This document shows positions 6,261 to 49,981 of a stretch of DNA of 64,000 nt, in pieces. A program made the translations under genes and the position numbers. Positions within the stretch are counted from its first letter, which is position 1. Every line of letters begins with the position of its first letter. Below the pieces are notes generated by a model. That model searched no databases, was not told the origin of the DNA, and saw only the letters and a list, made by a program, of their open reading frames with translations. Source of the stretch: an uncultured Gammaproteobacteria bacterium (GTDB lineage Bacteria > Patescibacteriota > Patescibacteriia > UBA9934 > CAZDDW01); NCBI GenBank assembly GCA_965231015.1, contig OZ246408.1, positions 481,237-545,236 on the forward strand. Direction: 5' to 3'.

Positions 6261-6296
6261 GGGCAAATTTTTACGATCGTGAGATTCTGCCTGGAA
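6261..6296. repeat. 36-nt repeat copy A (GGGCAAATTTTTACGATCGTGAGATTCTGCCTGGAA) immediately upstream of PaaX-like gene
   Basis: There are about 31 matches over 36 nt with copy B at 6828..6863. The two copies bracket the CDS 6316..6813. Confidence 0.7.
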
Positions 6297-6315
6297 ATGT
6301 TAATTGAATAAGAAT

Positions 6316-6813
6316 ATGTCGGAAACAATTGAAATGTTGAAGGATTTAATGCATATGACTGGAGTTGCATTATCGTCCGGTCGGCATATGCCTTCGACCT
6401 CGATTCTCAGCAGGGCTTCCTATGAGGAAATAATGGAGAAAAGGAAGCTTTATGAGTCAAGAAAATTACTAAAACGATTAAAGGATCAGAAGTTGTTAAA
6501 GATAAAAGAAAAGGGGAATAGAATAATCGTTTCAATTACAGATAAGGGAAAATACAGATTACTCAAAAGTGATGTTTTGTACGGTGCCGAGTTCCTTTCA
6601 GGGTATAAGGTGTGTCTTGTTAGTTTCGATATACCAGAACATGTCCGGGCTAGCCGTGATGTGTTGCGAGCTTTTTTAAAAGAGGCGGATTTCGAGCAGG
6701 TGCACAGAAGTGTTTGGAGGACAAAATATGACGTTGTTAAACCATTAAAAGAATTGATTGATAATCTCGGAATAGGAGATTGGGTTAAGGTTTATGTAGC
6801 TAACGAGGTTTGA
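6316..6813 (+). CDS. PaaX-like mini regulator: N-terminal winged-helix + Cas2-fold (beta-alpha-beta) domain; paralog of 16047..16541
   Basis: The N-terminus has a wHTH-like segment (LKRLKDQKLLKIKEKGNRIIVSITDKGKYRL). The C-terminal segment (VCLVSFDIPEHVRASRDVLRAFLKEADFEQVHRSVWRT) matches the Cas2/PaaX-middle-domain pattern (hhhhSYDI..RR.V.+.L...GF..lQ.SVW). Confidence 0.55.
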   Translation: MSETIEMLKDLMHMTGVALSSGRHMPSTSILSRASYEEIMEKRKLYESRKLLKRLKDQKLLKIKEKGNRIIVSITDKGKYRLLKSDVLYGAEFLSGYKVCLVSFDIPEHVRASRDVLRAFLKEADFEQVHRSVWRTKYDVVKPLKELIDNLGIGDWVKVYVANEV

Positions 6814-6827: not shown

Positions 6828-6863
6828 GGGCAAAATATTACGATCGTGAATTTTTGCCTGGAA
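6828..6863. repeat. 36-nt repeat copy B (GGGCAAAATATTACGATCGTGAATTTTTGCCTGGAA) immediately downstream of PaaX-like gene
   Basis: See copy A. Confidence 0.7.
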
Positions 6864-8736: not shown

Positions 8737-9808
8737 TTTTCCGCCCCGCCGAGGAGGAGTGGCGCGGTACTTAGACAGTCTTTGTCACGAATTCAAAGAC
8801 CAGGTTTTGGTTTTAGCCGAACATGAAGTGGGGGAGAAAAGTTTTGATCCCGTGGCAGGTTATAAAATCGAGCGAGTTAATCTGATGTTTAAGTATTGGT
8901 GGCCGCGGTGGAAAAAGATGTTGTGGCTCGTATTTACTCGTCTGCGCCAGTTCGATGTGATTTGGACATCTCACGTTTTACCAGTTGGTTTGGTAGCCAT
9001 GATTTCTAAGTTGGTCTATCGCAAGCCATACTTTGTGTTTTTACATGGTATGGATTTTGCTTTGGCCACACGAAACTCGTGGAAAAAGTTTTTAACTCGG
9101 CAGATCATTAAACGAGCCGAACTTGTACTGACAAATTCTTGTGCCCTAGAAAAAAGAGTCCTTAAGTTTGTACCAGGGGTTCAAACCGAGGTAATATATC
9201 CGTCCGTGTCAGCCAAACTAACCGCGGTTGATTCTGATCGAGACTATCGAGCTGATGATACTGTTCATTTACTATCAGTGTCTCGGCTGGTTGGCCGCAA
9301 AGGTCACTATAACGTTATGCGAGCTTTGCGTCAGGTGTTGCTTGAAAAACCGGACATTAAAATTCACTACAACATCGTTGGTTCGGGAATTGAATACGCC
9401 AGCTTGCTTCGTCATATGGAAAATTTAAATCTTGAAAACCAGGTTTCATTTCATCAGCACGTAGAAGATCGGGAACTACCAAGTTTTTATACGAATGCTG
9501 ACATATTTATTTTGCCAACCGAGAACATGGGAGCAGATCTAGAAGGTTTCGGGATCGTATATTTAGAAGCTGGGCTTTCCGGGCTTCCAGTAATTGCCTC
9601 GAATTTGCCAGGGGTGAATGAGGCGGTGCTTGATGGTCAAACCGGAGTGTTAGTAGAACCGGGGAATGTGGACGATATTGCGCGAGCCATTAAGATCCTG
9701 ATCGATAATCCGGATCTTTGTAAGAAAATGGGAAAGGCGGGGTATGATCGTGCTCGGACCGAGTTTACCTCTCGTGCTCAAGCGGATAAACTGAAAAAAT
9801 ATCTATGA
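8708..9808 (+). CDS. glycosyltransferase family 4 (GT-B, group 1)
   Basis: The C-terminal EX7E-like region (GFGIVYLEAGLSGLPVIASNLPGVNEAVLDGQTGVLVEPGN) matches GT4. Confidence 0.85.
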   Translation: MKRILLITPDFPPRRGGVARYLDSLCHEFKDQVLVLAEHEVGEKSFDPVAGYKIERVNLMFKYWWPRWKKMLWLVFTRLRQFDVIWTSHVLPVGLVAMISKLVYRKPYFVFLHGMDFALATRNSWKKFLTRQIIKRAELVLTNSCALEKRVLKFVPGVQTEVIYPSVSAKLTAVDSDRDYRADDTVHLLSVSRLVGRKGHYNVMRALRQVLLEKPDIKIHYNIVGSGIEYASLLRHMENLNLENQVSFHQHVEDRELPSFYTNADIFILPTENMGADLEGFGIVYLEAGLSGLPVIASNLPGVNEAVLDGQTGVLVEPGNVDDIARAIKILIDNPDLCKKMGKAGYDRARTEFTSRAQADKLKKYL

Positions 9809-10497
9809 TTAGTATAATTATTCCAACTTATAATGATGCGGAATTTTTACCTCTATGCTTAGAATCAGTATTTGGTCAGACCTTTCGGGATTTCGAGATC
9901 ATCGTAGTCAACGATGGATCAACGGACAATACTAAAGAAATTTTATCGAGCTACGAAAACCAGATTAAGGTCATTCATCAGGAAAACACGGGGCGCAATC
10001 CTGCCCGCATGCGCGGCTACGCTGAAGCGAATGGGGACTATCTATTATTTCTCGATTCAGATATTGAAATGGAACCGGACATGCTTGAGAATTTGTATCG
10101 AGCTCTTGAAACAAGCCCGGACGCGTCTTTTGCTTATGGTCAGTTCGTTTTTGGCAATAAAATGTTTTCGAGTTTTCCGTATGATCCGGAGCTTCTCAAA
10201 AAGATGAACTATATTCACACCTCAGCTCTAATTCGCCGAGCCCATTTTCCTGGGTTTGATCCAGAGATTAAAAAATTTCAGGATTGGGATGTGTGGCTCA
10301 CCATGCTCGGGCAAGGTCACACCGGAGTGTATGTTCCGAAGCTTGTGTTTAAAGCTCACGTAGATGGACAAGCCCTATCAAAATGGTTGCCCGCGTTTGT
10401 ATACAAGATTCCGTGGAAGTATCTTGGCTGGACACCAAAAAGAATTCGAGAGTATGAGGAAGCAAAAAGAATAATACAAAATAAACATAGCATATAG
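9805..10497 (+). CDS. glycosyltransferase family 2
   Basis: The motif MISIIIPTYNDAEFLPLCLESVFGQTFRDFEIIVVNDGSTD plus a DSD motif matches GT2. Confidence 0.85.
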   Translation: MISIIIPTYNDAEFLPLCLESVFGQTFRDFEIIVVNDGSTDNTKEILSSYENQIKVIHQENTGRNPARMRGYAEANGDYLLFLDSDIEMEPDMLENLYRALETSPDASFAYGQFVFGNKMFSSFPYDPELLKKMNYIHTSALIRRAHFPGFDPEIKKFQDWDVWLTMLGQGHTGVYVPKLVFKAHVDGQALSKWLPAFVYKIPWKYLGWTPKRIREYEEAKRIIQNKHSI

Positions 10498-10499
10498 CA

Positions 10500-10537
10500 C
10501 GTCGCAAATCGCTCGTCGTCCAGAAACGACATGCGAC
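10500..10537 (+). promoter_or_regulatory. palindromic leader element (CGTCGCAAATCGCTCGTCGTCCAGAAACGACATGCGAC) in 5' UTR of GT2 gene; second copy at 29627..29664
   Basis: A second copy with about 38/42 matches lies in the equivalent position upstream of another glycosyltransferase gene. It has nested inverted repeats (GTCGCA...GTCGT / ACGAC..GCGAC). Confidence 0.5.
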
Positions 10538-10562
10538 AAGCGACGCGCAACGTGTGATATAT

Positions 10563-11420
10563 ATGAACGACGTTTCGATTATTATTGTGAACTATAAAGT
10601 CGCCGATCTAGTGGAACGGTGTATTGCTTCGGTTTATGAATATACCAAAGGAGTGAATTTTGAGATCTATTTAGTCGACAATGCTTCAGGAGATGATGTG
10701 GTGCCGCGCATTAGCTCGAAATTTCCCGAGGTCAACATTGTAGCCAACAACAAGAATCTAGGTTTTGCCGCGGCCTGTGATCAGGGAATTGAGCTCTCAC
10801 GCGGTGAGTTTGTGTTGTTATTGAATCCTGATACCGAGCTCAAGGATGACGCGATCAGTCAGGTAGTCTCGAAGATGCAAACGGATAGGGAAGTTGGAGT
10901 TGGGGGTGTGCACCTGGTGAACCCGGACGGAACCCACCAGAGTTCAGGGGTGCGGCGTTTTCCGGGCGTACTCGATCAGTTGCTGATTATGCTCAAGATT
11001 CCGCATCTGTTTGGCGAAGTCGGACCGGTGAAACGGTATTTAATGTCGAATCTCGATTACGCCGAGTCGCAAGATGTGGACCAAGTCATGGGCGCGTTCT
11101 TCTGCATCCGCCGGGAGTTAATGCAAAAAATCGGTATGCTCGACCCTGGATTTTTTATCTGGTTTGAAGAGGTGGATTTTTGTAAACGAGCCGTCGATTC
11201 AGGATATCGAGTTCGTTACTATGCGGATATTGACGTCGTGCATCATCGCGGCGCGAGCTTCGGCCAAGTTGCCACGATCAAGAAACAACGCTGGATCCGC
11301 AACAGTCTGCGCAGATATATCCGCAAGCACAAAGGTGTACCTGCGTGGTTGCTCTTTGTCCTGCTCGAGCCCGTGTTTATCGTTCTCGCAATCATGGCTC
11401 AAATAATTAAACCGAAATAA
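10563..11420 (+). CDS. glycosyltransferase family 2
   Basis: The motif MNDVSIIIVNYKVADLVERCIASVYEY....YLVDNASGDD matches GT2. The tracked ORF starts at a GTG at 10554; the ATG at 10563 is preferred. Confidence 0.85.
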   Translation: MNDVSIIIVNYKVADLVERCIASVYEYTKGVNFEIYLVDNASGDDVVPRISSKFPEVNIVANNKNLGFAAACDQGIELSRGEFVLLLNPDTELKDDAISQVVSKMQTDREVGVGGVHLVNPDGTHQSSGVRRFPGVLDQLLIMLKIPHLFGEVGPVKRYLMSNLDYAESQDVDQVMGAFFCIRRELMQKIGMLDPGFFIWFEEVDFCKRAVDSGYRVRYYADIDVVHHRGASFGQVATIKKQRWIRNSLRRYIRKHKGVPAWLLFVLLEPVFIVLAIMAQIIKPK

Positions 11421-26081: not shown

Positions 26082-29072
26082 ATGCCTAAGGGAAGAGAAG
26101 GATACAGACCAGCCGGGGAAGAGATCCGGCCGGAAGTGGATAAGCCAAGTCTGCCTGAAGAAGCAGAACGTGTTTTGCGTGAAAATGACAAGGAAAAAGT
26201 TCTGGAAGTGGCTAAAGATTTAGATCCCAAATATCACAGCGAATTTGCCATCCGTGTTTTAAACGAATTTGATAGCATTTCTTTGTCACATTCTCTCATT
26301 CAAGAACTTCAAGGTTTAAACGCTGAGGTATCTAAGGCCTGCCAAAATTATGAATTGGTGACTCTCGTGGGTCAAAATTTAGATAATTTTCAAGCCATTG
26401 ATCAATACGCGGCTTTTGCTTTAGCTAGATATGGTTCGAAAGAAGTAAAGAAAAAGTTGTTTGAATCAGCCGACCGACTCGGTTTGGATAAAACGAAGCT
26501 CATTGAGGATTTATTATATGTGGGTCGTGGTTTTACGGTTTTGGAAAATAGGGATTTGCTCTCAGAGATCTCACCGGAGAAGCTTGTAGAAATGTTTGTG
26601 GAATCGGCTGAAACCGAAGTGTTGATTGTTAATCTGCCCAATCACCCAGAATTTGATCAAGCCATGGTGATTAAAAAAATCATGAGCTTACCTCACCCGG
26701 AAGTAGTAAAAATAATATTTGATGAGATAGATAATTTTGATCACCTTGATCATAATGAATTGGTCAAAGATATGCTCGAGGCCACAGAGGTTCATGATGG
26801 GGAGCCAGAAGAGGATGACGCAGAAAAAGAATTTATCAAGTATCAAAAGCGGCGAGTGTTTTTTGATAATTTAGGCAAGCTTGAAGGTTTAAGTTCCGAA
26901 ACAGCAGACAGACTACTCAAAACCGAAGATTACCCAATAGAAAAATTATTGAGAGACCTAAAGAGTTTTAAGGGGTTGGACATGGAAAAAATAGAAGAGA
27001 AAGCACGAAAAGAAAATAAAATATACCTGATCGCAGAAAAAATCGATCATTTTCCTCATATTGACAAGCAACAATTTGCTGAAGAACTGAAGAAAACTGA
27101 TATCCATTTATTGTTGGACAACATTAGAAAATTTCCTGAAATTGACCATGCGGCACTAGGAGACGACTTAATCGCTGAAGGGTGGGGTAAATTGTTTATT
27201 CGAACCAGTAGAAGACTGAATGCAATATCCCCTGAAGCCGCAGATTATTTATGGGATAATATGCAGTACTCCAGTTATGCCGATGCCTTACATAAATTAA
27301 CTGGAATTCCGGTGGATCGGGGGTTAGATTTAGTTGAGATTGGTTTTGTTGCTCAAGTGATCAATAATATTCACAGATTTGAATCTAGCGGTCAGTCAAA
27401 AATCATCGACGCGGTTTTAGAGGTTAATCCGGGCGCGGTAGCCGGGTACATGAACAAGATTTCTGAATTGACTCCAGATCAAGGGTATCGACTTGCTGCA
27501 ACCGGTTTTGGGGAAGTGGTTATTGCACACTTAGATAAGGTTCCCGGAATAGATCACGAAAAAATAGCTCGTTATTTAATCAAGAATGCCCAACCTGAGG
27601 TTTTGTTCAAGCACTTTGAAAAAATTCAAATTAAAGACTGGAATAAGTTGTTGGAGTTAGCTGTTAGGACAGGAAACGGATGGGATGTTTTTGCTCAACT
27701 TCATCGTTTTGAGAGCTATGATAAAGATGCCTTATTGGATGTTTTGTTAGCTAAAAATGAACTTTCTTTGGCAGCGGAATATATCCATTATTTTGAGGCC
27801 AAAAGACACCAGGAGGTAGCAATGGTTTTACTGGAAAGAGGTCATGTATCCGAGTTTCAATCAAATATAAACAAGTTTAAAGATCTAATAAATTGGCGGG
27901 AATTAATTGATAAAAATATAAAAACAGTGTTGAATATTGCCTGGCAAGTTCCGGTAGAAATAATCTCTCAACTTGATGAAAAAGACCAACAACGATTTAA
28001 GCTTCGACTTGAAAGAGGAGTCTCGGAAAAAATGTTTTTACTAAAGTATGATGAGCTTTTGCCGTATATTGAATCTGGATTGGTTGATTTAGAGCTCCCC
28101 GGGTATTCTAAAGAACAACTTCAGCGGCATATTGATCAGGTGATGGAAAACTTACAAAAAAAAGGGTTAGAATATTTAGCCGCTCAAGTGGCTGAATGTG
28201 CTGAGGCCTCAGGTCTTGAAGTAAATCATGCAGAGTTAAATAAGTTGCGGCAAGCTGAAAGGGAAGAAGAGGCAAGGAGGGAAAATCGGGAAGCCCGTGA
28301 GGTGGATCTAGGGAACCATGAAGTAGCTGATGAAATGACTCGTTTTTATGTGTATCAGTTGATCTCATCACATTTACCGGCCAAGCGGTTGAATTATGAA
28401 GCGTGGGGTATTAAATTACCTCATCGGGATCGGGTTGCCCTGAATGATATTACCCGCCAAGCCGAGCCCTTTAATGAAGAACTGTATAAATGGATGAAGG
28501 ATTATGGGGTTTTTGCTGTTGTTTCAGAGTTGTCACATCAGGCTGATGTTTTTCCAAGACAGGAATGGCTGGAACTACCTCAGATGGAGGTTCCAGAATG
28601 GGATATAGCAGTCAAGGATAGGGCAAATGTAGATGTTTTTTTAAAGTACGCAACTAAGCAAGAGATTGGTGAGTTTTTGCACCAAGCCTCATTGGTATTT
28701 AGGAAGCGCGGTTGGTACACTAGTTTTGGTGGAGAGCCTTGGGCTAAAATAGCTGAAGTGGTGGCTGAGGCCTGGCAAGAAAAGTATCCGGAAGAGGTTG
28801 TGTGTGATAGGATTTTTGACCTAGAACATAATTCAGGAATGATTTTTGATAAACGGCCGGACAGAATTCGGGCCGAAAATTCTGAACTGCAGAAGATTTT
28901 AGATTTTAAATTTAAAGCCAAGGGCGATGTGGATGAATGGCTGGAAGAAATACCGAAGATGGAAATCAGTGACCAAACAACCCGACATCTAACCAATAGC
29001 CTGAAGACATTTAAACGTCTTCAGCCACAGTTAAATAAAATGCAGGCTAAGTATACTGGTCAATTTAGTTAA
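26082..29072 (+). CDS. large hypothetical protein (996 aa, mostly alpha-helical repeats, acidic)
   Basis: It is a long uninterrupted ORF with no recognisable catalytic motif. Confidence 0.6.
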   Translation: MPKGREGYRPAGEEIRPEVDKPSLPEEAERVLRENDKEKVLEVAKDLDPKYHSEFAIRVLNEFDSISLSHSLIQELQGLNAEVSKACQNYELVTLVGQNLDNFQAIDQYAAFALARYGSKEVKKKLFESADRLGLDKTKLIEDLLYVGRGFTVLENRDLLSEISPEKLVEMFVESAETEVLIVNLPNHPEFDQAMVIKKIMSLPHPEVVKIIFDEIDNFDHLDHNELVKDMLEATEVHDGEPEEDDAEKEFIKYQKRRVFFDNLGKLEGLSSETADRLLKTEDYPIEKLLRDLKSFKGLDMEKIEEKARKENKIYLIAEKIDHFPHIDKQQFAEELKKTDIHLLLDNIRKFPEIDHAALGDDLIAEGWGKLFIRTSRRLNAISPEAADYLWDNMQYSSYADALHKLTGIPVDRGLDLVEIGFVAQVINNIHRFESSGQSKIIDAVLEVNPGAVAGYMNKISELTPDQGYRLAATGFGEVVIAHLDKVPGIDHEKIARYLIKNAQPEVLFKHFEKIQIKDWNKLLELAVRTGNGWDVFAQLHRFESYDKDALLDVLLAKNELSLAAEYIHYFEAKRHQEVAMVLLERGHVSEFQSNINKFKDLINWRELIDKNIKTVLNIAWQVPVEIISQLDEKDQQRFKLRLERGVSEKMFLLKYDELLPYIESGLVDLELPGYSKEQLQRHIDQVMENLQKKGLEYLAAQVAECAEASGLEVNHAELNKLRQAEREEEARRENREAREVDLGNHEVADEMTRFYVYQLISSHLPAKRLNYEAWGIKLPHRDRVALNDITRQAEPFNEELYKWMKDYGVFAVVSELSHQADVFPRQEWLELPQMEVPEWDIAVKDRANVDVFLKYATKQEIGEFLHQASLVFRKRGWYTSFGGEPWAKIAEVVAEAWQEKYPEEVVCDRIFDLEHNSGMIFDKRPDRIRAENSELQKILDFKFKAKGDVDEWLEEIPKMEISDQTTRHLTNSLKTFKRLQPQLNKMQAKYTGQFS

Positions 29073-29074
29073 GT

Positions 29075-29617
29075 ATGAAACGTCTATTTCTAGCTATAAA
29101 ATTGCCGCCAGAGGTTAAAGGGGTTCTTTATGGAATGCAGGATGACATGAAGAAGGTTTTTAAGCATTCTAAAATAACCTGGGTGGATCCGGAGATTGCT
29201 CATATCACGCTTCAGTTTCTTGGTGATGTGCTTGAAGAAGATCTTGAGTCATTGATCTCGGAAATTAGGGCAGGGGAGTACCCTGAACCGTTTGAGCTAG
29301 AAACGCGTAGCACATCTTGTTTTCCAAATCCGAAAAAACCAAAAACACTCTATATCGAGACCTCAAACCATACAGCCGCAACCGGGTTGCACAAAAGATT
29401 GTCAAAAATTTTGGTGGAAAACGGGTTTGAAATCGATGATCGTCCCTGGGTGCCACATATCACACTTGGACGAGTTAAGACTCAATCCGAGACATATCCG
29501 TCAGAAGGTTTCGAGGTTGAGCCGGTTAGTTTTGAAGTTGACTCGTTTGAACTTCTTGAGTCTGATCTGAGCGAAGACGGACCAATTTATACAACTCTTG
29601 AAATTTTTAAACTATAG
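29075..29617 (+). CDS. thpR: RNA 2',3'-cyclic phosphodiesterase (2H phosphoesterase, LigT/ThpR family)
   Basis: It carries two H-x-T/S-x motifs (HITLQFLG and HITLGRV) in a 180-aa protein. Confidence 0.8.
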   Translation: MKRLFLAIKLPPEVKGVLYGMQDDMKKVFKHSKITWVDPEIAHITLQFLGDVLEEDLESLISEIRAGEYPEPFELETRSTSCFPNPKKPKTLYIETSNHTAATGLHKRLSKILVENGFEIDDRPWVPHITLGRVKTQSETYPSEGFEVEPVSFEVDSFELLESDLSEDGPIYTTLEIFKL

Positions 29618-29626
29618 CCAATCGTT

Positions 29627-29664
29627 CGTCGCAAATCGCTTGTCGTTCTGAAACGACGTGCGAC
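29627..29664 (+). promoter_or_regulatory. second copy of palindromic leader element (CGTCGCAAATCGCTTGTCGTTCTGAAACGACGTGCGAC), followed by (GCGATAT)x3 tandem heptamer
   Basis: See 10500..10537. Here it sits about 21 nt upstream of the TagA-like start codon. Confidence 0.5.
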
Positions 29665-29685
29665 GTGCGATATGCGATATGCGAT

Positions 29686-30459
29686 ATGATACAAATCCTA
29701 GGAGTGAAAATTAGCATGCTCGATAAAAAAGCTGTTCGTGAGGCCTTGCGTTCTTATCTTGAGTCAGACCGTCAGTATTACGTAGTCACCCCGAATCCGG
29801 AAATGGTGGTTCGGGCTCGACGCGATAAAGAGTTTCGTGAAATTTTGAACGGGGCGGATTTAGCTATTGCTGATGGAGTCGGGTTGCAACATGCTGCGTC
29901 ACTGAATCGCGACAAGTGGCCACCACGAATAACCGGAAATGATGTCATGCAAATGTTGGCAGAAATTTGTGCGGGATCCGGCAAGAAAATTTTTTTGCTC
30001 GGCGGAGAAAAAAACGATGTAGCAAAAAAGTCAGCTGATTTGTTAAAAGAAAAATATCCCACGCTTGAGATCGGGCATGATCCAGCCGGACCAGTGTATT
30101 TTGAACATGGAGAATGGCACATGAATCCGGCAGTGATTGATCGGCTCAAAGAGTTTGAACCAGATTGTTTGCTCGTAGCCCTTGGGCACGGCAAACAAGA
30201 ACGTTGGATCACGAAATTTATGCCTCATTTACCGAGTGTAAAAGTGGCCGTGGGGATCGGTGGAGCTTTTGACTATCTGGCCGGAGCAGTAGAGCGAGCG
30301 CCTGAAGCTATGCGAAGCGTGGGGCTCGAATGGCTATTTAGGTTGTACAAAGAACCGAAAAGATTTAAGCGGATCATGAACGCGGTGCTTGTCTTTCCAA
30401 TTCTCGTTATTTGGAGTAAAATAAGACCTCAAAATAAAGTTAAAAAGGATAAAGGATAA
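29686..30459 (+). CDS. WecB/TagA/CpsF-family glycosyltransferase (N-acetylmannosaminyltransferase-like)
   Basis: The sequence MIQILGVKISMLDKKAVREAL...YVVTPNPEMVV...LGHGKQERWI matches the family. The tracked ORF starts at a GTG at 29665; the ATG at 29686 is preferred. Confidence 0.8.
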   Translation: MIQILGVKISMLDKKAVREALRSYLESDRQYYVVTPNPEMVVRARRDKEFREILNGADLAIADGVGLQHAASLNRDKWPPRITGNDVMQMLAEICAGSGKKIFLLGGEKNDVAKKSADLLKEKYPTLEIGHDPAGPVYFEHGEWHMNPAVIDRLKEFEPDCLLVALGHGKQERWITKFMPHLPSVKVAVGIGGAFDYLAGAVERAPEAMRSVGLEWLFRLYKEPKRFKRIMNAVLVFPILVIWSKIRPQNKVKKDKG

Positions 30460-42574: not shown

Positions 42575-43117
42575 TTAGTCCTCAATAATAGCTTGTAAGA
42601 CACTCGGCACTTCGGTTATCCCGGTATCATCGTCGTAATGACTCATGTCGTGATCGATTACGGTCGAGGCACCAAAGTGTTCTTTGGTGTAATTAGTACT
42701 GCTGGTTGGTATAAATGGATCGTTGTCAGAAAAGACCGATGATTTTTTTGGCTGAACTCGAGATCTTGGTGTCGTTGAAAGGTTGTTCAAGCCATGGGGC
42801 GATAAATTCGGGCATATCGTCAGTTAATCCGTTGATAATATCAACCGCCGGGACCACCAAAACAGCTTTGTTGATTTTATTCCTTCAAGTAGTCGCTCGA
42901 GGTATCGCGGCGCTGTTGCTCCACCCATGCTGTGGCCGACAATAATAACGTCTTCACTTGGTGTGCCGACAACCTGTTCAAGGTATGATACCCAAGCTTC
43001 CATGCGTGGATTATCCGAATCCGGCATGGAAAGAGATTCGACTTCGTAACCCTCGGCTTCGAGCTCACGCTTGAGCCATGGAAAAAAATGAGTTGTTGGA
43101 GCTCCCTTCCCAACCAT
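42575..43117 (-). pseudogene. frameshifted RBBP9/YdeN-family alpha/beta serine hydrolase
   Basis: The N-terminal part (42824..43117) has FPWLKRELEAEGYEV....IIVGHSMGG. The C-terminal part (42575..42790) is in another frame. The frameshift lies between them near 42800-42860. Confidence 0.6.
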
Positions 43118-43234
43118 GAACCAAGAATGCTTTTGGCATAAAATTTTGTTTATAGATTTAACCTTTTGGTTAGAAGATTATTCACTGGCACATTCGTGCG
43201 AATGTGAAAGTAAGATACTTGTTATTTAGTATAG

Positions 43235-43350
43235 TTGCTGTTAGGCGCTGTCGCGAGCGGAGCGAGCGGCAAAGCGCCGACAGTCGCAGCCCGTTATATT
43301 CCTCGAAGGGCTGAAATTCAGTGCAACGTCCCGAAGGGCTGGCGAGCGTA
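43235..43350. repeat. GC-rich repeat element R0 (partial; contains GTTAGGC and GTGCAACG modules)
   Basis: It shares sub-modules with R1/R2, such as agtgcaacg...cgaag and gttaggcg. Confidence 0.5.
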
Positions 43351-43366
43351 ATAAATACCATTAAAT

Positions 43367-43726
43367 TTATTGCAATTTCTTGAGCATTCTTTCAACTATT
43401 CTTTGAGCTTGTCTTCCGGCGGCAGCGTGTATAAGGTCAAACATATCTCTTGATAGTGCTTCACACTCTCCTGTTTTTGAATCGACTTTGTATCCGGTAA
43501 AATTTTCTGAAACATCTGATGTTTTTTCGATTTCTTGAAGAAAATCAATTAATTCAGATCGAGGAACACCGCCGCCTTGATCAGGATTTTGTTCTAAAAT
43601 TTTTCTTAATGCTTGAGCTCTTTCTGGACTAAAATGTTTTGTTAATTCAGATAACTCTGCCGTCTTTTCTTTTGCTTGTTCGGCAAGGTCTCTGAGCTCT
43701 GTTGGTTGTTCTGATCCTTTTTCCAT
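43367..43726 (-). CDS. hypothetical protein (119 aa)
   Basis: It is a clean ORF preceded by repeat R1, with no domain found. Confidence 0.5.
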   Translation of the reverse strand: MEKGSEQPTELRDLAEQAKEKTAELSELTKHFSPERAQALRKILEQNPDQGGGVPRSELIDFLQEIEKTSDVSENFTGYKVDSKTGECEALSRDMFDLIHAAAGRQAQRIVERMLKKLQ

Positions 43727-43754
43727 AAGTTATAAATTTAATGGTATTTATTAT

Positions 43755-44058
43755 GGCGTATAACGGCCGGCGGCTATGCGACGTGGTCCGGAGACGAGCT
43801 TGCTCGTCGACGGGCCATGTCCGCATAGCTGACTGTTGTGCGATGTCGCGTAGCGACGAGCGCAACAAAAGGCGTAGCCGCCGGCCGTTGTGGCGAAGGA
43901 GCGAAGCGATTTCGCCACAACGTTTGCGTGTATCTGATGTTTTGCGGAGCAAAATATGGGAGATCGAAGTGCAACGAGTGAACCGCATATGCTGTGTTAG
44001 GCGAGCCGAACGGAGTGATAGCGAAGTGAGAGTGCAACGTGCCTTTAGCGTATTTTTG
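43755..44058. repeat. GC-rich hairpin-rich repeat element R1 (core module A + module C)
   Basis: A ~170-bp core is nearly identical to R2 and R3: a 14-bp perfect inverted repeat ACGGCCGGCGGCTA...TAGCCGCCGGCCGT encloses ~90 nt, followed by the hairpin GTTGTGGCGAA..TTCGCCACAAC. Arg-rich ORFs inside it are artefacts of GC-richness. Confidence 0.8.
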
Positions 44059-44115
44059 AAAAAATTATCATTATTATTCTTTTGTTGTTGGTCTTTTTAT
44101 AATTGTTGATTGCTA

Positions 44116-44520
44116 TTAACCAAATACTGCAAAACCTTCCCCAAATACCCTTGATGAAACCGCACTTAATATGATAACGCCAACAAGTAATGTCACCATT
44201 ATAAAAATAACTTCTCCAAGAATAACTTTTTTATATAACTTACCCAGCTCACTCTCACACGTTTTTTTCAGAAATTCAGATAAAAATTTTTCTTTGAAGT
44301 AGAAATATAAACCTAATAATATAAATAAGGTTCCTACAAGTAAATTGATGACAAAACCAATGCGAGATAAATAAATACTACCAATGATAATCAATCCACT
44401 TGTTATCCAAAGAAAAATCGTCAAATAAGTTGCGAACTGTAATAATTTTAATTGTAAGTTATTTTTCATAATGTTTAGTCTGAATAAATTAATTTTTATA
44501 TACTCCAACAACAAAAACAT
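44116..44520 (-). CDS. hypothetical integral membrane protein (4 TM)
   Basis: Hydrophobic helices are present. The 5' end of the tracked ORF overlaps a repeat motif, so the start was trimmed. Confidence 0.45.
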   Translation of the reverse strand: MFLLLEYIKINLFRLNIMKNNLQLKLLQFATYLTIFLWITSGLIIIGSIYLSRIGFVINLLVGTLFILLGLYFYFKEKFLSEFLKKTCESELGKLYKKVILGEVIFIMVTLLVGVIILSAVSSRVFGEGFAVFG

Positions 44521-44815
44521 TTTAAAAACAAATTTTTCAAAAATATGTCGCCTAACGTTCAAGTATATGAGAAGTTTCGCACACTCCTTATTAAAATTCA
44601 ATAATGTGTGTGCGAAATTTGGGTAAAAGAAATTGCGCCCCCGCTAAAAGTTAAGAAGCGTAATTTCTTGAACCTCTTATACTTTGTTGTACGATGTTGG
44701 CTTTCCATTTTATTCGATTTTTTGGGGAGTTTTCGGTCGTTTGCAATTGACAGGCGGGGAGCAACTTGCTATTATTCAAAGTCGCAATTCCGCGACCAAC
44801 GAAGGAGGTTTATCA

Positions 44816-45102
44816 TGAGTGACAAGACGAAGAGGCGACCGGCACACGAGATCATCATGGGGATGATACACGAGGCGTACAGAGATCTGGCTTCTGCCGA
44901 TAAGGGGCAGGAAGAACGGCATGCTGTTCGGATTCAGACTCTGTGCCAGGTGATGACTGACATGTTCATCCCCGAGGAATTGATGCCTCAGCTGACCAAT
45001 CAGCTCGAAATGGCCACCCGAGTCCCCATCATCGCCGATGTGGCCTACCTGGTGCACGAGGACATTCAGCGTCTCATGGGCAGGCTCATGTACGACGAGT
45101 AG
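44816..45102 (+). CDS. GC-rich hypothetical protein (95 aa) with strong SD (AAGGAGG 8 nt upstream); only plus-strand gene in the island
   Basis: Its composition differs from its neighbours. There is an RBS, and start is MSDKTKRRPAHEIIMGMIHEAYRDL. Confidence 0.5.
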
Positions 45103-45221
45103 AACGCCCCGCCGCCATCCGCTTCACCAACCCCCGTTCGGACAACATGTCCAGCAGGGGTTCATTTTTTATAGAGAAAACTGCCCAAATAATTGAATTG
45201 GAAAAGAGAAAAATGGAAAGC

Positions 45222-45345
45222 CAATTTCGCCACAACGTTCCTGCGTATGCGATGTTTGCTAGTGGTATAATTGCACGAAGTGCTTACCACTGGCAAATAT
45301 GGGTGCAGTGAGGAGGAGGTACAACGACGAACGGAACCGCATATT
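45222..45345. repeat. partial repeat R2' (module B: hairpin CCAGTGGTATAATTGCACGAAGTGCTTACCACTGG)
   Basis: It is near-identical to the right half of R3. Confidence 0.7.
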
Positions 45346-45350
45346 CTTTG

Positions 45351-45899
45351 TTATATGATGTTTTTGTGTGACACGTCATTAAGATAAAACAATATTGCAA
45401 TCAATGATATACCGTCTGATATTTCCTTGTTTTCAATCAGTTCTTTGACTTTAGCAATAGAGAGCCAATGGATTTCATTGACTTCATCTGTATCAAAATC
45501 TATTTGTTTAGAACTATCAGCTTCACCAATAACTACATGTGTCGTTTGGTTTGACATTCCGTTTGAAGGATTGAAAGAATAATGGAGTTTTAATGCCTTC
45601 GTTCTAAACCCAGTTTCTTCTAGCACTTCGCGTTCAGCGGCTTTCAAAATATCCTCGCTTTTATCGATTCCACCGGCGGGTAATTCCCACTGAATCTGTT
45701 GGGTTGTATAGCGAAGTGCTTTTATGAAGCAAATGTCTTTTTTATCGTTGGTCAACAAAACGACTACAGAATCGTTTGGATAGTCTAAAAAATGGTATTT
45801 TTCAATAATTTTACCAGAAGGCATTAAAACCCTGTCTGTATAGAGGTTGATCCATTGGCTCTCGTAGATTGTTTTTCGCTCTAGTCTTTCAGGTAACAT
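45351..45899 (-). CDS. NUDIX hydrolase
   Basis: It carries the Nudix box GGIDKSEDILKAAEREVLEETGF. Confidence 0.85.
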   Translation of the reverse strand: MLPERLERKTIYESQWINLYTDRVLMPSGKIIEKYHFLDYPNDSVVVLLTNDKKDICFIKALRYTTQQIQWELPAGGIDKSEDILKAAEREVLEETGFRTKALKLHYSFNPSNGMSNQTTHVVIGEADSSKQIDFDTDEVNEIHWLSIAKVKELIENKEISDGISLIAILFYLNDVSHKNII

Positions 45900-45943
45900 A
45901 TCTTGATTGTATTAGTGTCACACAAAAATTTCACACAACGGCC

Positions 45944-46240
45944 GGCGGCTATGCGACGTGGTCCGGAGACGAGCTTACTCGTCGACGGGCCATGTCCGCA
46001 TAGCTGACTGTTGTGCGATGTCGCGTAGCGACGAGCGCAACAAAAGGCGTAGCCGCCGGCCGTTGTGGCGAAGGAGCGAAGCGATTTCGCCACAACGTTC
46101 GCGTATATCTGATGTTTTGCGGAGCGTAGCGGAGCAAAATATGGGAGAGCGACGGCAGGAGCGAACCAGATATACGCTGTTGTGCGAGGGTGAGCGACGA
46201 TAGGAGCGAAAGTGCAACGACCCCGAAGCGTATTTTTCAA
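45944..46240. repeat. GC-rich repeat element R2 (core module A + modules C and D)
   Basis: See R1. The core 45944..46115 is nearly identical. Confidence 0.8.
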
Positions 46241-46359
46241 TATTTTTTCATTCTTTATTATTTTGTTGAAGAATTTTATTATTATTTGGAATTTTTATTT
46301 TTTCGTTTTTCTTTTTCCAAGAGGGATTAGGGGTGAATTGGAAAAAGAAAAACACCTTA

Positions 46360-47840
46360 CTAAAAAAATCCTCTCATTTTCTCAATAGACTGTTTTAGCT
46401 GTTTTATATCGGGTTTTCCATTATCTTTTTGATGATGAATTTGATTTCTCAAAAATGTATGAATAGTTACTTCATTTTGATTTCCTTTCCATGGAGAATC
46501 TTTTGTTTCTTGTTTTTCACTTTGAAAATAATCTATATCAAATTTTTTGATTGCTTTAGTAATGGTTTCCTTTGTTCCGTCTTTTTTTTCTATTTCTTCT
46601 TGTCCATGTTTAAATATTAATTCTTCGTATAATTCGTTGTGATATTCTTCAGTTGCTAACCCAAAAGCAATAAAATTTACTTCGTTAGCTGAAACATATG
46701 GTAAAACTCTTTTTTCTAATTCTAAAATTTTTACTTCTTCATTTTCTTTCTCTAAGCAATGAATTTGAATTTTGCTATTGTCATTATTTAATGTTTGTTT
46801 AACAAAAAGTGGAGAGTGAGTAGAAAATAGAAATTGATTTTTTTCAGAAATTGAAACTATGTGGTTAATAAAATTATTTTGTAAATCTGGGTGCAAATGT
46901 AGTTCTGGCTCATCAATTAAAATCAAAATGTTTTCTTTTGAAATTTCTGCCATTGTTTCTAAAAATAATAAGGAAACAACCATTTCAACACCTGATCCAA
47001 GTTGAGATATCGGCAAATCTAAACTTTCTAATTTTTGAGAAAGAAAAGCACTATCAAAAGGTGCGTTACAATCAATTAGTGAAAGATCTGCTTTCGGTAA
47101 GCCGACTTTTTCAAGTTTTTCGTTTAATGTCTGAAATGTTTTTTGTTGTGATTTTTCGTCAATTTTTTCTAAAACGCTTGTTTCAAAATTATTTTTTTGA
47201 GTTGTAAATTTTTCTCCGTCAAAATCTTCCTTTGTTTCATTTTTTTTATTTCTTTATTAAATCTCCAATTAAAATCTTCAAAAACTGACGAAATGGAAGA
47301 ATTAAACCCTCTCTGTAATTGTTTTTCTCTGTTTTTTGGAAAATAAAAACTTTTTGGCAACCCTTCTGATTCCAAAGGAAAAGATAACTGTCTTTCATCA
47401 AATTTAAATTTTGTTCCTGTCCCTCTTGTTATCTCCCAGCCATTTTCATTATCTTTTTCTCTGTTTGGTAAAACATAATGAGACACAACAACAATATCTG
47501 AAAATGCTTTTTTAGGAGTTGCCCTATCTCTCTTTTTTATTTCCAAGCAAACTTTACTGCATTCAACATCTTGTTTAGTATAGCCGTCAGGTAAAAAGAT
47601 TTTAAAGTTTTCATTAAATTCTAAAATAATCTTTATTTCAACATCTTCGCCTTTATAAAAATCTGTATGTTTTATTCTTCCTGATAAAAAATAAGGAGAA
47701 AGACAAAAATTTATTGCTTCCAAAATAGAGGTTTTACTTGTTCCATTTTCACCAACAAGCAAAGAAAGATTTTTTAGTTCAAAATCTTTTAATTCTTTTA
47801 TGCCTCTAAAATTTTGGATTGTGATTGTCTTTATCTTCAT
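46360..47840 (-). pseudogene. AAA_21/ABC-like ATPase (OLD/RecF-type) disrupted by frameshift(s): N-part 47169..47840, C-part 46360..47016
   Basis: The N-terminal part has Walker A (LLVGENGTSKTSILEAINF). The C-terminal part has the signature and Walker B (SQLGSGVEMV...LILIDEPELHLHP...STHSPLF). The roughly 150-nt gap between them contains T8 homopolymers. Confidence 0.55.
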
Positions 47841-47860
47841 AACTTTTTTATTTAAAAAAT

Positions 47861-48943
47861 CTAAACTCCCACAAAATATCTATTCTCTTCTTTTGTGGCA
47901 AAAACTTTTTCTTCTTTTTTCTTGTGTATCGATTCTGTTTTTGGCGTTTGATTCATTTTTTCATTCTTCTGTATTCTTTTATTTCTGATTAAAATTCTAA
48001 AATATGGACATTTTCCATTTATAGACAAATCTTTTTCGTCATTTCCTTTTCTGAATTTAATTATTTCAAACTGATCTGGGTTGAATTTATGTAAAAAAGT
48101 TATCGGTACACCCATAACACCTGAATAATCCAAAGGAATATTTTGTGTTTTATTCACATTAATTCCATGATAATTATCATAATGAGGATACTCAGTTTCG
48201 TTTCCAAAATATTTCTTAGTAAGAGGAATATCTTCGTGTCTTTTAGAAGTATCTAAATTGGTGAGCCATAGACAATTATTTGGGGAGACTATTCTATTTC
48301 CAAAGTCATCAATACGGGCTTCTGTTCCATAAAGCTCATAATGTTCTGGAACAATAAAGCCTGAAATACCTCTACCTAGATTTATTCCTAACCACGCTTT
48401 ACTTCTCTTAATTAATTTAAAAATTTCTTTGTAGGTTATAGCATTAATATTGCCAATAATCAGAAATTTCTTATCATATTTAACCAATTGATCTACGTGC
48501 TCTCTAAATAATGAAAATGGTGGATTAGTAACAACTATATCGGATTGTTTTAATAACTGGATACTTTCCGCACTACGAAAGTCCCCATCCCCTTTAAAGT
48601 GAACAATATCATCTGAACTTGGCTTTGTTTTTTCATCTTGAGCACCTGTATATTCATAAAAAAATCCACATTCAGATACCTCAGTATTAAATAAATTTCT
48701 TTCTTGTTTTTTATAACAAGCCGCTATTAATTTTTTAAGTCCTAGCTCTTTGAAGTTTAAAGCAAAATAATGAAAAAAATTACTAATTTTTGGATCATCG
48801 CAATTACAAAAAACCACTTTGTTTTTAAAATGATCTTTATAATGTTGCAATTCGCTTTCTATATCTGAAAGTTGAGTGTAAAACTCATCACTTTTTGATT
48901 TTTTAGCTTTTTGCAGTAATGTATTTGTTGCATTTCTTGCCAT
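47861..48943 (-). CDS. N6-adenine DNA methyltransferase, M.EcoRI family
   Basis: The N-terminus MARNATNTLLQKAKKSKSDEFYTQ...VVFCNCDDP is near-identical to M.EcoRI as recalled. The NPPF motif is present (IVVTNPPFSLF), and the C-terminus reads GKCPYFRILIRNKRIQK. Confidence 0.85.
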   Translation of the reverse strand: MARNATNTLLQKAKKSKSDEFYTQLSDIESELQHYKDHFKNKVVFCNCDDPKISNFFHYFALNFKELGLKKLIAACYKKQERNLFNTEVSECGFFYEYTGAQDEKTKPSSDDIVHFKGDGDFRSAESIQLLKQSDIVVTNPPFSLFREHVDQLVKYDKKFLIIGNINAITYKEIFKLIKRSKAWLGINLGRGISGFIVPEHYELYGTEARIDDFGNRIVSPNNCLWLTNLDTSKRHEDIPLTKKYFGNETEYPHYDNYHGINVNKTQNIPLDYSGVMGVPITFLHKFNPDQFEIIKFRKGNDEKDLSINGKCPYFRILIRNKRIQKNEKMNQTPKTESIHKKKEEKVFATKEENRYFVGV

Positions 48944-48970
48944 AATCAAATTTTATAAATAAAATTTTAG

Positions 48971-49806: not shown

Positions 49807-49894
49807 ATTGTTTTTTGAATAAGTAAGGTGTCTTTATTATAGTGTTTTTTTATAAAAATTTAAAATTCATTTTTTGCGGAAGTATGAAGCAAAA

Positions 49895-49918
49895 AATACC
49901 ATATATCCCCCTCATTAA
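49895..49918 (-). promoter_or_regulatory. motif ATGAGGGGGATATATGGTA (minus sense) about 110 nt upstream of the EcoRI-like R start; related copies upstream of C gene
   Basis: The same about 19-nt motif occurs twice at 56629..56647 and 56681..56697. Confidence 0.4.
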
Positions 49919-49981
49919 AATAAAAATTCCATTCCTTTTTAAATTCTTCAACAAAATTCTTTATTTGAGAAAAAATATTGA

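What the first reader, a model, noticed from the sequence alone, without database searches (positions are those of the whole stretch)
10500..10537. Conserved palindromic 38-nt leader element shared by two glycosyltransferase genes (copy 1)
CGTCGCAAATCGCTCGTCGTCCAGAAACGACATGCGAC lies immediately upstream (25 nt) of the GT2 gene start at 10563. A copy with 4 substitutions lies 21 nt upstream of the TagA/WecG-like gene at 29686. It can fold as GTCGCA..GTCGT / ACGAC..GCGAC nested stems. Neither gene has a recognisable Shine-Dalgarno. This suggests a cis-regulatory RNA structure or protein operator coordinating cell-wall polysaccharide genes.
Basis: seen in the sequence. Interest (0 to 1): 0.6.

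Follow-up and report, generated by a model that had tools for sequence, protein, structure and literature searches.

The report
Inserted heptamer-repeat hairpin between operon genes
Two copies of a ~66-69-base palindromic insert sit exactly between the stop codon of one gene and the start codon of the next in two operons of a tiny-genome (Candidatus Uhrbacteria) bacterium. One copy is kept almost unchanged in a distant relative, so it is a retained, probably functional inserted hairpin rather than an ancestral leader shared by glycosyltransferase genes.

Summary
The 38-nt copies lie at 10500-10537 and 29627-29664 and differ by 4 substitutions. None is expected by chance.

The unit is larger than reported. 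It is a 66-nt and a 69-nt insert that fill the whole spacer from upstream stop to downstream start. Each arm is built of about five tandem heptamers (xTCGCxx / GCGAYxx), and the insert folds into a 3-5-tier hairpin.

More distant relatives (65-81% protein identity) have a 4-nt TATGA stop/start overlap at both junctions. The window has TAT + insert + TATGA, so these are insertions with a TAT (or TA) duplication. One close relative carries an unrelated palindrome at the same site.

Another relative (L040) carries the same element: 61/68 spacer bases are identical, while fourfold sites of the flanking genes are saturated (27-39% identical). That points to constraint.

Lack of a Shine-Dalgarno sequence is genome-wide, so it is not a special feature here. 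The link to glycosyltransferases is not significant once the TATGA target preference is allowed for (p about 0.1). No further copy was found in 73.5 kb or in three public collections.

Best reading: a palindromic element of mobile type, retained as an intercistronic hairpin that affects coupling or expression of the downstream gene. The function is inferred, not shown. A REP/MITE-like selfish repeat remains a serious rival.

The parts
10496..10561 (+). Insert copy 1 (66 nt), filling the GT2|GT2 spacer. Sequence: AGCACGTCGCAAATCGCTCGTCGTCCAGAAACGACATGCGACAAGCGACGCGCAACGTGTGATATA
   Evidence: Empty-site alignment with L015/L016, which read ...CC/TC-TATGA.... Sequence printed.
10500..10537 (+).
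10487..10560 (+). Full predicted hairpin of copy 1. It has five tiers. The outer tiers pair the last codons and stop codon of the upstream GT2 with the bases just 5' of the downstream ATG.
   Evidence: Pair list (-29.7 kcal/mol)..
10493..10495 (+). Left TAT of the direct duplication. With the insert's first bases AG it creates the new stop codon TAG at 10495-10497.
10562..10566 (+). Right TATGA, the regenerated junction. It contains start codon ATG 10563-10565 of the downstream GT2.
29616..29684 (+). Insert copy 2 (69 nt), filling the LigT|WecG spacer. Sequence: AGCCAATCGTTCGTCGCAAATCGCTTGTCGTTCTGAAACGACGTGCGACGTGCGATATGCGATATGCGA
   Evidence: Empty-site alignment with L009/L010/L012, which read ...TATGA..... 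The ortholog in L040 is 61/68 identical.
29627..29664 (+). 38-nt core, copy 2 (4 substitutions relative to copy 1)
29613..29686 (+). Full predicted hairpin of copy 2 (five tiers). U29613 pairs with A29686, the A of the start codon. Stop codon UAG 29615-17 pairs with 29682-84.
   Evidence: Pair list (-31.3 kcal/mol)
29654..29688 (+). Tandem heptamers of the right arm (CGACGTG x2.4, TGCGATA x3.3). The last unit contains the ATG.
   Evidence: TRF. Lag-7 self-identity 0.90.
29613..29615 (+). Left TAT of the duplication. The stop codon TAG is at 29615-29617.
29685..29689 (+). Right TATGA, with the WecG start codon ATG at 29686-29688
9805..10497 (+). Upstream GT2 glycosyltransferase (its stop codon lies in the hairpin base)
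   Evidence: Pfam PF00535, 4.7e-37
10563..11420 (+). Downstream GT2 glycosyltransferase. It has only a weak match to the rhamnosyltransferase subfamily. Some homologues are named GlcNAc-PP-decaprenol rhamnosyltransferase by JGI.
29075..29617 (+). Upstream LigT-like 2'-5' RNA ligase/phosphoesterase
   Evidence: Pfam PF02834
29686..30459 (+). Downstream WecG/TagA-family glycosyltransferase
   Evidence: Pfam PF03808, 3.1e-47. TIGR00696 above its cutoff. Start confirmed.

Best explanation
This is a small (66-69 nt) palindromic element of the kind left by non-autonomous mobile DNA. It was inserted, with a TAT (or TA) duplication, into the TATGA stop/start overlap of two tightly packed operons of a Candidatus Uhrbacteria genome. 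The insert begins with AG, so TAT+AG makes a new stop codon at once. The duplicated TAT plus GA restores the start codon. Both genes therefore stay intact.

Each arm is an array of about five heptamers, and the two arrays are inverted relative to each other. The operon transcript can therefore fold into a stepped hairpin of 4-7-bp tiers separated by 1-3-nt internal loops. The base of this hairpin brings the upstream stop codon next to the downstream start codon.

At least the LigT|WecG copy has since been kept under purifying selection.

The most likely mode of action is post-transcriptional. The hairpin replaces direct termination-reinitiation coupling. It makes initiation on the SD-less downstream glycosyltransferase cistron depend on, and be tuned by, ribosomes finishing the upstream cistron. 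A ribosome at the stop codon would melt the outer tiers and free the roughly 15-20 nt in front of the AUG. The hairpin may also act as a barrier or processing site for mRNA decay.

The near-invariance of loops and mismatches suggests that a protein also reads the sequence.

Shown: the insertion, the duplication, the heptamer architecture, the folding potential and the cross-lineage conservation. Inferred: transcription as RNA, the coupling or stability effect, and any binding factor.
For: - Empty sites: relatives have overlapping TATGA junctions at both loci. These are L015, L016, L017 and L018 for GT2|GT2, and L009, L010, L011, L012, L013 and L014 for LigT|WecG. The window has TAT+insert+TATGA at both.
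- Conservation: in L040 (GCA_043807295.1; WecG 83% aa identity) the 68-nt spacer has the same length and 61/68 identical bases. The flanking LigT, WecG and GluRS genes are 71-74% identical at nucleotide level and only 27-39% identical at fourfold sites. The spacer is the best-conserved stretch in about 750 nt. Binomial p is 1e-3 against the coding average and 1e-17 against a neutral expectation of 40%.
- Tier 3: three of the seven substitutions fall here, and all keep or improve pairing (G.U to G-C, C x A to C-G, A-U to G.U). This is my reading.
- Folding: -22 to -31 kcal/mol, z -2.4 to -4.4. These two 5' regions are the most structured of 40 genes examined.
- Operon context: other intra-operon junctions are -38 to +8 nt. 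These are the only two long intra-operon spacers, and the element fills both.
- No SD genome-wide. A subgroup of Parcubacteria lacks the anti-SD motif (PMC9297842).
- The RNA-unfolding model of coupling at +52 to +62 nt spacing is established elsewhere (PMC12548453).
- Heptamer periodicity: lag-7 identity is 0.46-0.90 in all six arms, and 0 of 5000 shuffles reach it.
Against: - There is no experimental or transcript evidence.
- Start-codon accessibility (-12..+6) is only average, 0.44-0.45, so strong occlusion of the AUG is not predicted.
- No compensatory covariation was seen. The outer tiers, the ones that bridge stop and start, are the least conserved. Tier 4 loses 2 pairs in L040.
- Folding energy does not favour the sense strand consistently. 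Copy 1 folds better as antisense, -27.7 vs -22.0.
- Conservation of loops is not needed for a plain coupling hairpin.
- Only two copies and one ortholog are available.
- An unrelated palindrome occupies the same site in L007. Analogous hairpins in the L012 genome occur in both orientations relative to transcription. Both facts fit selfish DNA better than a dedicated RNA device.
Confidence: 0.45

Rival explanations
1. REP/MITE-like selfish dispersed repeat. Under this reading the element is one of many genome-wide copies mobilised in trans by a transposase (TA-duplicating IS630/Tc1-like, or a Y1/RAYT-type enzyme acting on hairpins). Its sequence is conserved because the enzyme must recognise it. 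Its position before two glycosyltransferase genes is a by-product of a preference for TATGA overlaps.
For: - Insertion with TAT/TA duplication at two unlinked sites.
- Palindromic structure.
- A different palindrome at the same site in L007, and another at GT2|GT2 in L019.
- The L012 genome has its own family with tandem-octamer arms, in both orientations.
- Similar GTCGY-heptamer hairpins occur several times per contig in unrelated bacteria: L029 has 5 in 9 kb, and L001 has one.
- The GT association is not significant given the target preference: 3/28 = 0.11.
Against: - Only 2 copies in 73.5 kb, even allowing 9 substitutions or using a covariance model.
- Six TATGA overlaps in the same 73.5 kb remain empty.
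- No transposase was found among the window proteins scanned. Not all ORFs were scanned.
- No family member in 185,579 species genomes, JGI metagenomes or IMG/VR with patterns that match both copies.
- The orthologous copy keeps the same length and 90% identity over a divergence that saturates synonymous sites. A resident, immobile selfish copy would not do this without host-level selection.
Confidence: 0.3
2. Dedicated regulon element. Under this reading a sequence-specific operator or RNA motif, bound by one trans-acting factor, co-regulates the two glycosyltransferases. Both plausibly act on undecaprenyl-PP-GlcNAc.
For: - Both copies are in the same orientation, each directly 5' of a glycosyltransferase.
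- The core, including loops and internal mismatches, is nearly invariant: W2-L040 37/38, W1-W2 34/38.
- WecG is TagA/TarA-like. Some GT2 homologues are named GlcNAc-PP-decaprenol rhamnosyltransferase by JGI.
- If any co-directional junction could be hit, the naive chance of both being GT-preceding is about 0.006 (4 of 45 junctions).
Against: - n=2.
- The element is absent from the same junctions in all more distant relatives and in the closest GT2 homologue, which manage with overlapping genes.
- It lies inside operons, not at promoters. Downstream of copy 2 lie gltX and an M23 peptidase, which would be co-affected.
- The GT2 function is not established: its rhamnosyltransferase match scores 53 bits against a cutoff of 200.
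- No Rfam family matches.
Confidence: 0.13
3. Intra-operon intrinsic terminator or attenuator that lowers read-through into the downstream genes.
For: A stable GC-rich hairpin lies directly after a stop codon. One Acidobacteriaceae heptamer hairpin of similar design is followed by a T-run (L004/L034).
Against: - No U-tract follows either copy. The terminator scan finds nothing there.
- No recognisable promoter lies between the hairpin and the next ATG. Termination would therefore starve essential gltX downstream of copy 2.
Confidence: 0.07
4. Independent local origin. Under this reading the two hairpins arose separately by slippage and template switching at AT-rich junctions, and resemble each other by chance.
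For: Heptamer arrays change by unit conversion: GCGATAT x2 in W2 against GCGACGT x2 in L040.
Against: 34/38 identity of the cores, with 0 matches in shuffles.
Confidence: 0.02

Closest known systems
REP/BIME elements of Enterobacteria and Pseudomonas (repetitive extragenic palindromes)
   Same: Both are short imperfect palindromes located between co-transcribed genes. Both are presumably transcribed, can stabilise upstream mRNA or affect downstream translation, and are conserved in sequence across species. The REP definition is taken from PMC12306157.
   Different: REPs are 14-40 nt, occur in tens to hundreds of copies, carry a 5' GTAG-type tetranucleotide and are tied to RAYT transposases. 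Here only 2 copies are seen. The element is 66-69 nt, has heptamer-array arms and no GTAG, and no RAYT was found. A TAT duplication is present, which REPs do not make.
Bacterial MITEs with TA duplication (e.g. Neisseria Correia elements; IS630/Tc1-derived MITEs)
   Same: Both are non-coding palindromic inserts flanked by a duplicated TA-containing target. Both are found between genes of one operon, and their transcripts form long hairpins. The comparison to Correia elements rests on my own knowledge.
   Different: MITEs are usually 100-400 nt with defined terminal inverted repeats matching a parent IS. No parent IS, no clear TIR consensus and no multi-copy family could be shown here. The arms are internally repetitive with a 7-nt period.
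Tandem heptamer repeats in intergenic DNA (cyanobacterial STRR; TAACTGA repeats of Beggiatoaceae, PMC4679880; heptameric repeats noted in PMC4692102)
   Same: Both have a 7-nt unit repeated head-to-tail in non-coding spacers, with unit turnover by conversion.
   Different: Those are direct arrays, often long and very numerous. Here two short arrays (about 5 units) face each other as an inverted repeat and fill a stop-to-start spacer.
RNA-unfolding translational coupling hairpins (E. coli rpmI-rplT at +52 nt; phage f1 genes VII-IX), reviewed in PMC12548453
   Same: In both, structure spans the end of the upstream cistron and the initiation region of the downstream one, at a spacing of 50-70 nt. 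A terminating ribosome would open it.
   Different: Those structures are ancestral parts of their operons and occlude an SD. This one is a recent insert in an SD-less genome, and its predicted occlusion of the AUG is only moderate.

Membership tests
REP (repetitive extragenic palindrome) | Short imperfect palindrome in extragenic DNA | tested here: met
   The hairpin folds at -22 to -31 kcal/mol and lies entirely in the two spacers. At 66-69 nt it is longer than the 14-40 nt given for E. coli REPs (PMC12306157).
REP (repetitive extragenic palindrome) | Many dispersed copies per genome sharing a consensus | tested here: inconclusive
   2 copies in 73.5 kb, about 7% of a ~1.0-Mb genome.
REP (repetitive extragenic palindrome) | Association with a RAYT (Y1) transposase and a conserved 5' GTAG-like tetranucleotide | tested here: not met
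   No GTAG lies 5' of the stem. No transposase domain was found in the window proteins scanned. The whole genome was not examined.
MITE | Target-site duplication flanking the insert | tested here: met
   TAT...TATGA at both sites, against a single TATGA in empty-site relatives. The duplication length (TA, AT or TAT) is ambiguous.
MITE | Terminal inverted repeats matching an autonomous IS in the same or related genomes | tested here: inconclusive
   The whole element is an imperfect inverted repeat. No IS or transposase was found in 73.5 kb. No related sequence was found in public scans.
MITE | Presence/absence polymorphism among related genomes | tested here: met
   Present in the window and L040. 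Absent in L009, L010, L012, L015 and L016. Replaced by a different element in L007.
Intrinsic (Rho-independent) terminator | GC-rich hairpin followed by a U-tract | tested here: not met
   No T-run follows either hairpin, and the scan did not report them.
Conserved cis-regulatory RNA leader (riboswitch/attenuator type) | Present upstream of orthologous genes across related genomes | tested here: not met
   Orthologous junctions in most relatives are 4-nt overlaps. The element is conserved only in L040.
Conserved cis-regulatory RNA leader (riboswitch/attenuator type) | Structure supported by compensatory base changes | tested here: inconclusive
   0 of 24 pairs show double changes among 3 sequences. 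The core is almost invariant.
Any Rfam family | Score at or above the family gathering threshold | tested here: not met
   Only a tRNA was found in the window at gathering threshold. The element regions give only sub-threshold miRNA-precursor-like hairpin hits, 16-18 bits against cutoffs of 62-104.
Tandem heptamer repeat arrays (STRR-like) | Head-to-tail 7-nt units | tested here: met
   TRF finds period 7 at 29654-29688. Lag-7 identity is 0.46-0.90 in all arms, and 0 of 5000 shuffles reach it.
Tandem heptamer repeat arrays (STRR-like) | Same unit sequence as a described family (e.g. CCCCAGT, TAACTGA) | tested here: not met
   The units here are xTCGCxx / GCGAYxx.

The most novel reading that the evidence does not exclude
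A site-specific miniature hairpin element that homes to (C/T)TATGA stop/start overlaps. It brings its own stop codon (AG after the duplicated TAT) and regenerates the start codon. Through a stop-to-start bridging helix it keeps the two cistrons translationally coupled in a genome that has no Shine-Dalgarno initiation. In the Uhrbacteria lineage it has been co-opted, and is read by a sequence-specific factor, to set the level of the TagA-like and GT2 enzymes of cell-envelope glycan synthesis.
Probability: 0.15. Interest if true: 0.65.

Novelty: new variant of a known kind. Interest (0 to 1): 0.42.

Why it matters
CPR/Patescibacteria genomes are tiny and tightly packed, and this one has no SD-led initiation. 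How internal cistrons are translated and regulated in such genomes is poorly understood.

A palindromic insert that splits a stop/start overlap without damaging either gene, and is then conserved better than the proteins around it, suggests one of two things. Either there is a simple evolvable way to retune coupling inside operons, or there is a class of very small mobile elements adapted to compact genomes.

It also warns annotators. The element caused a wrong start call for the WecG gene. 'Shared leader motifs' can be insertions rather than regulons.

Tried and rejected
1. Genome-wide and collection-wide copy search.
- Structured patterns that match both copies were run against 185,579 species genomes, JGI metagenomes and IMG/VR.
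- These returned only GC-rich unrelated hairpins or coding matches.

2. Extending the window.
- The left extension gave 9.5 kb (L037) with no copy.
- The right-end look-up failed.

3. SD absence as a special feature. Rejected, because it is genome-wide.

4. Promoter or leaderless-start idea. No acceptable -35/-10 lies in or after the element, and -10-like GATATA is too close to the ATG (and my own reading of the sequence).

5. Terminator. No U-tract.

6. attC/integron-like site. No RYYYAAC/GTTRRRY ends are visible. This rests on inspection only.

7. Strand asymmetry (G.U pairs) to decide RNA versus DNA. Inconsistent between copies.

8. Covariation. Too few and too similar sequences.

9. Strong sequestration of the start codon. 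Not supported, since accessibility is average.

10. Rfam. No family matches.

11. Transposase in the window. None among the scanned proteins. The 43-56 kb island holds restriction-modification and ATPase defence genes instead.

Full report
**Observation.** The 38-mer CGTCGCAAATCGCTCGTCGTCCAGAAACGACATGCGAC is at 10500-10537. A copy with four substitutions is at 29627-29664, on the same strand. No match occurs in shuffled sequence. Repeat finding shows that the similarity runs for about 74 nt (10487-10560 vs 29614-29687, 76%, D3).

A GT2 gene (9805-10497) is followed by a second GT2 gene (10563-11420). A LigT-like gene (29075-29617) is followed by a WecG/TagA-family gene (29686-30459). The WecG start at 29686 is right, because the N-terminus MI(Q/E)ILGV is conserved in homologues. 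The public gene call starts 10 codons too late, at 29716.

**Anatomy.** Each copy folds into a stepped hairpin.
- The core has three tiers: CGUCGC/GCGACG, UCGC/GCGA and GUCGU/ACGAC. It folds at -22.0 and -23.2 kcal/mol, z -4.4 and -3.2.
- With its flanks it has five tiers, at -29.7 and -31.3 kcal/mol. These reach from the upstream stop codon to the downstream start. In copy 2, U29613 pairs with A29686 of the AUG, and UAG 29615-17 pairs with 29682-84.
- The arms are tandem heptamers. The left arm reads ATAGCCA ATCGTTC GTCGCAA ATCGCTT GTCGTTC. The right arm reads ACGACGT GCGACGT GCGATAT GCGATAT GCGATAT-G.
- TRF reports period 7 at 29654-29688. Lag-7 self-identity is 0.46-0.90 in all six arms of the three known copies and at most 0.40 at other lags. 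None of 5000 shuffles reaches it.
- No Rfam family matches.

**Organism and genome style.** Homologues are named Candidatus Uhrbacteria (Patescibacteria/CPR). The same proteins lie on a contig of 1,002,985 bp.

Co-directional junctions inside operons are -38 to +8 nt. The two element-bearing spacers (65 and 68 nt) are the only long intra-operon spacers, and the element fills both.

Almost none of about 35 inspected starts has a Shine-Dalgarno sequence. Upstream regions are A/T-rich. A subgroup of Parcubacteria is reported to lack the anti-SD motif (PMC9297842). So 'no SD' is a property of the genome, not of these two genes.

**The element is an insertion.** In relatives the two junctions are 4-nt overlaps.
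- GT2|GT2 reads ...CC TATGA TCG... in L015 (81% identical GT2) and ...TC TATGA CAG... in L016, L017 and L018.
- LigT|WecG reads ...AC TATGA TAG... in L009, and similarly in L010, L011, L012, L013 and L014.
- The window reads TAT + 66-nt insert + TATGA at the first site and TAT + 69-nt insert + TATGA at the second.

Both inserts begin with AG, which turns the left TAT into a TAG stop. The right TAT-GA restores the ATG. This is the signature of an insertion with a TAT (or TA) target duplication that leaves both ORFs whole.

L007/L008 (WecG 82% identical) have a different, 120-nt G+C-rich palindromic insert at the same LigT|WecG site, again TAT...TATGA. L019 has yet another palindrome (GTAGGGTCACATAATTATGTGACCCTAC) at GT2|GT2. 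The junctions are therefore colonised repeatedly by unrelated hairpins.

**Conservation.** L040 (GCA_043807295.1, Candidatus Uhrbacteria, WecG 83% identical) has the same element at LigT|WecG. The spacer is 68 nt in both genomes, without indels, and 61/68 bases are identical.

| Comparison (window vs L040) | Identity |
|---|---|
| Element spacer | 61/68 (90%) |
| Flanking LigT, WecG, GluRS, nucleotide level | 71-74% |
| Same genes, fourfold-degenerate sites | 27-39% (saturated) |

In 34-nt windows the spacer scores 0.88-0.91 and the coding flanks 0.59-0.85.

The 38-nt cores give 37/38 for W2-L040, 34/38 for W1-W2 and 33/38 for W1-L040. W2 and L040 therefore look orthologous, and W1 looks like an older or faster-evolving paralog.

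The seven W2/L040 differences include two identical changes in two neighbouring units (GCGATAT to GCGACGT). This is unit conversion within the array. Three changes fall in tier 3, and all keep or improve pairing. Two break pairs in tier 4. With three sequences there is no compensatory double change.

A resident neutral copy could not stay 90% identical over this divergence. Either the copy is under selection, or the family is still being re-delivered to this exact site.

**How many copies?** No further copy exists in the window or in the 9.5 kb upstream of it (L037). This holds with up to 9 substitutions and with a covariance model built from the three copies.

Patterns that match both copies found nothing related in 185,579 species genomes, the JGI metagenomes or IMG/VR. 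The source genome is absent from those sets. The rest of it could not be fetched, so the genome-wide census that would decide between a REP-like repeat and a dedicated element is still missing.

**Gene association.** If any of the 45 co-directional junctions could be hit, two hits before glycosyltransferases (4 such junctions) have a chance of about 0.006. The element sits in TATGA overlaps, however. The 73.5 kb hold six empty TATGA overlaps plus the two occupied ones, and three of these eight precede glycosyltransferases. That gives 3/28 = 0.11. The association is therefore suggestive at most.

Both enzymes may act on polyprenyl-PP-GlcNAc. WecG is TagA/TarA-like. Some GT2 homologues are named rhamnosyltransferase by JGI. 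The GT2 assignment is weak, however, at 53 bits against a cutoff of 200.

**Wider context.**
- The L012/L019 genome has its own hairpins whose arms are tandem octamers (AACCATTT). One is at WecG|GluRS and one is at another junction. The two have opposite orientation relative to transcription, and the first folds better in the sense strand because of G.U pairs.
- The model also picked up GTCGY-heptamer hairpins in unrelated bacteria. One, with 7-8 units per arm, lies after ahcY in L001. Five lie within 9 kb of a 63% G+C contig, L029.
- Hairpins built from short tandem units are thus a recurrent kind of intergenic DNA, and they resemble the tandem heptamers known from cyanobacteria and Beggiatoaceae (PMC4692102, PMC4679880).

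**Mechanism.** The supported steps are insertion, duplication, architecture, folding potential and selection. For function I favour a post-transcriptional role.

Before the insertion the gene pairs overlapped (ATGA). This is the arrangement associated with termination-reinitiation coupling (PMC6728339, PMC12548453). After it, 65-68 structured nucleotides separate stop and start in a genome without SD.

A ribosome at the stop codon covers roughly the next 12-15 nt. It would open the outer tiers and free the 15-20 nt in front of the AUG. This is the RNA-unfolding model, documented at +52 nt for rpmI-rplT (PMC12548453).

The two 5' regions are the most structured of 40 genes tested (-31 kcal/mol). 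The predicted accessibility of the AUG itself is only average, at 0.44-0.45, so the effect may be tuning rather than on/off control. A role as a decay barrier is equally possible.

The invariance of loops and mismatches hints at a protein partner.

Terminator and promoter readings are not supported.

**Verdict.** The 'shared glycosyltransferase leader' reading is only partly supported. The element is an inserted, heptamer-armed palindrome that has been retained under constraint. It is a new variant of the small intergenic palindromic elements known from other bacteria, and the choice between 'co-opted hairpin' and 'selfish repeat' remains open.

Noticed in passing
window 43762-43950, 45937-46125, 51021-51209: Three 189-nt direct repeats (93-98% identical). 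Each holds a very stable hairpin (-53 kcal/mol) and a second palindrome, CGTTGTGGCGAAGGAGCGAAGCGATTTCGCCACAACG. A 99-nt repeat pair lies next to two of them (45224-45322, 51168-51266). They are scattered through a low-GC island.
   Followed up: partly
window 43000-56000: Low-GC (29-40%) island carrying an EcoRI-like adenine methyltransferase (47861-48949), an HpaII-like restriction endonuclease (54343-55482), split AAA_15/AbiEii-like ATPases (46360-47840), a 950-aa SMC/AAA_21 protein (51487-54339), KNTase_C and NUDIX proteins. It looks like a defence island.
   Followed up: partly
window 6261-6296 and 6828-6863: A 36-nt direct repeat (86%) flanks the PaaX_M-domain gene (6304-6813) on both sides, just upstream of the Wzx/glycosyltransferase operon. 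PaaX_M genes also sit beside the same operons in relatives. It may be an operator pair or the ends of an inserted gene.
   Followed up: no
window 29686 vs 29716: The public gene call for WecG (P0001, 247 aa) starts at the internal ATG 29716, behind an AGGAG. The conserved N-terminus shows that the true start is 29686. The element probably misled the gene caller.
   Followed up: yes
L012 10745-10832 and 3180-3235: In another Uhrbacteria genome (GCA_018824525.1), stop-to-start spacers are filled by hairpins whose arms are tandem octamers (AACCATTT / GGATGGTT). The two copies have opposite orientation relative to transcription. The first uses G.U pairs on the sense strand, -30.2 vs -21.2 kcal/mol.
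   Followed up: partly
L007 9851-9970 (also L008): An unrelated 120-nt G+C-rich double hairpin (CCCCTCCTTAAAGGAGGGG ... GCCCCTCCCCTCTAAGGGGAGGCTAGGAGGGGC) is inserted at the same LigT|WecG TATGA junction, also flanked by TAT...TATGA. GGGG-rich hairpins of similar flavour lie at window 51356-51484.
   Followed up: partly
L029 2982-3066, 6282-6378, 6958-7025, 7392-7471, 8652-8737; L001 7240-7365: Unrelated bacteria carry multiple hairpins made of GTCGTAC/GTCGCAG-type heptamer arrays. L029 is a 63% G+C metagenome contig with hairpins of up to -75 kcal/mol. L001 is MAG HyVt-354. This suggests a widespread but undescribed style of intergenic repeat.
   Followed up: partly
window, all gene starts: Nearly all genes lack a Shine-Dalgarno motif and have A/T-rich upstream regions. 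Operon junctions are mostly -4 to +8 nt, and eight are ATGA overlaps in 73.5 kb.
   Followed up: yes
window 26082-29072: A 996-aa ORF with no Pfam or NCBIfam match lies between clpB and LigT. It is absent from the syntenic position in L007, L009, L010 and L012, but a homologous ORF end precedes LigT in L040.
   Followed up: no
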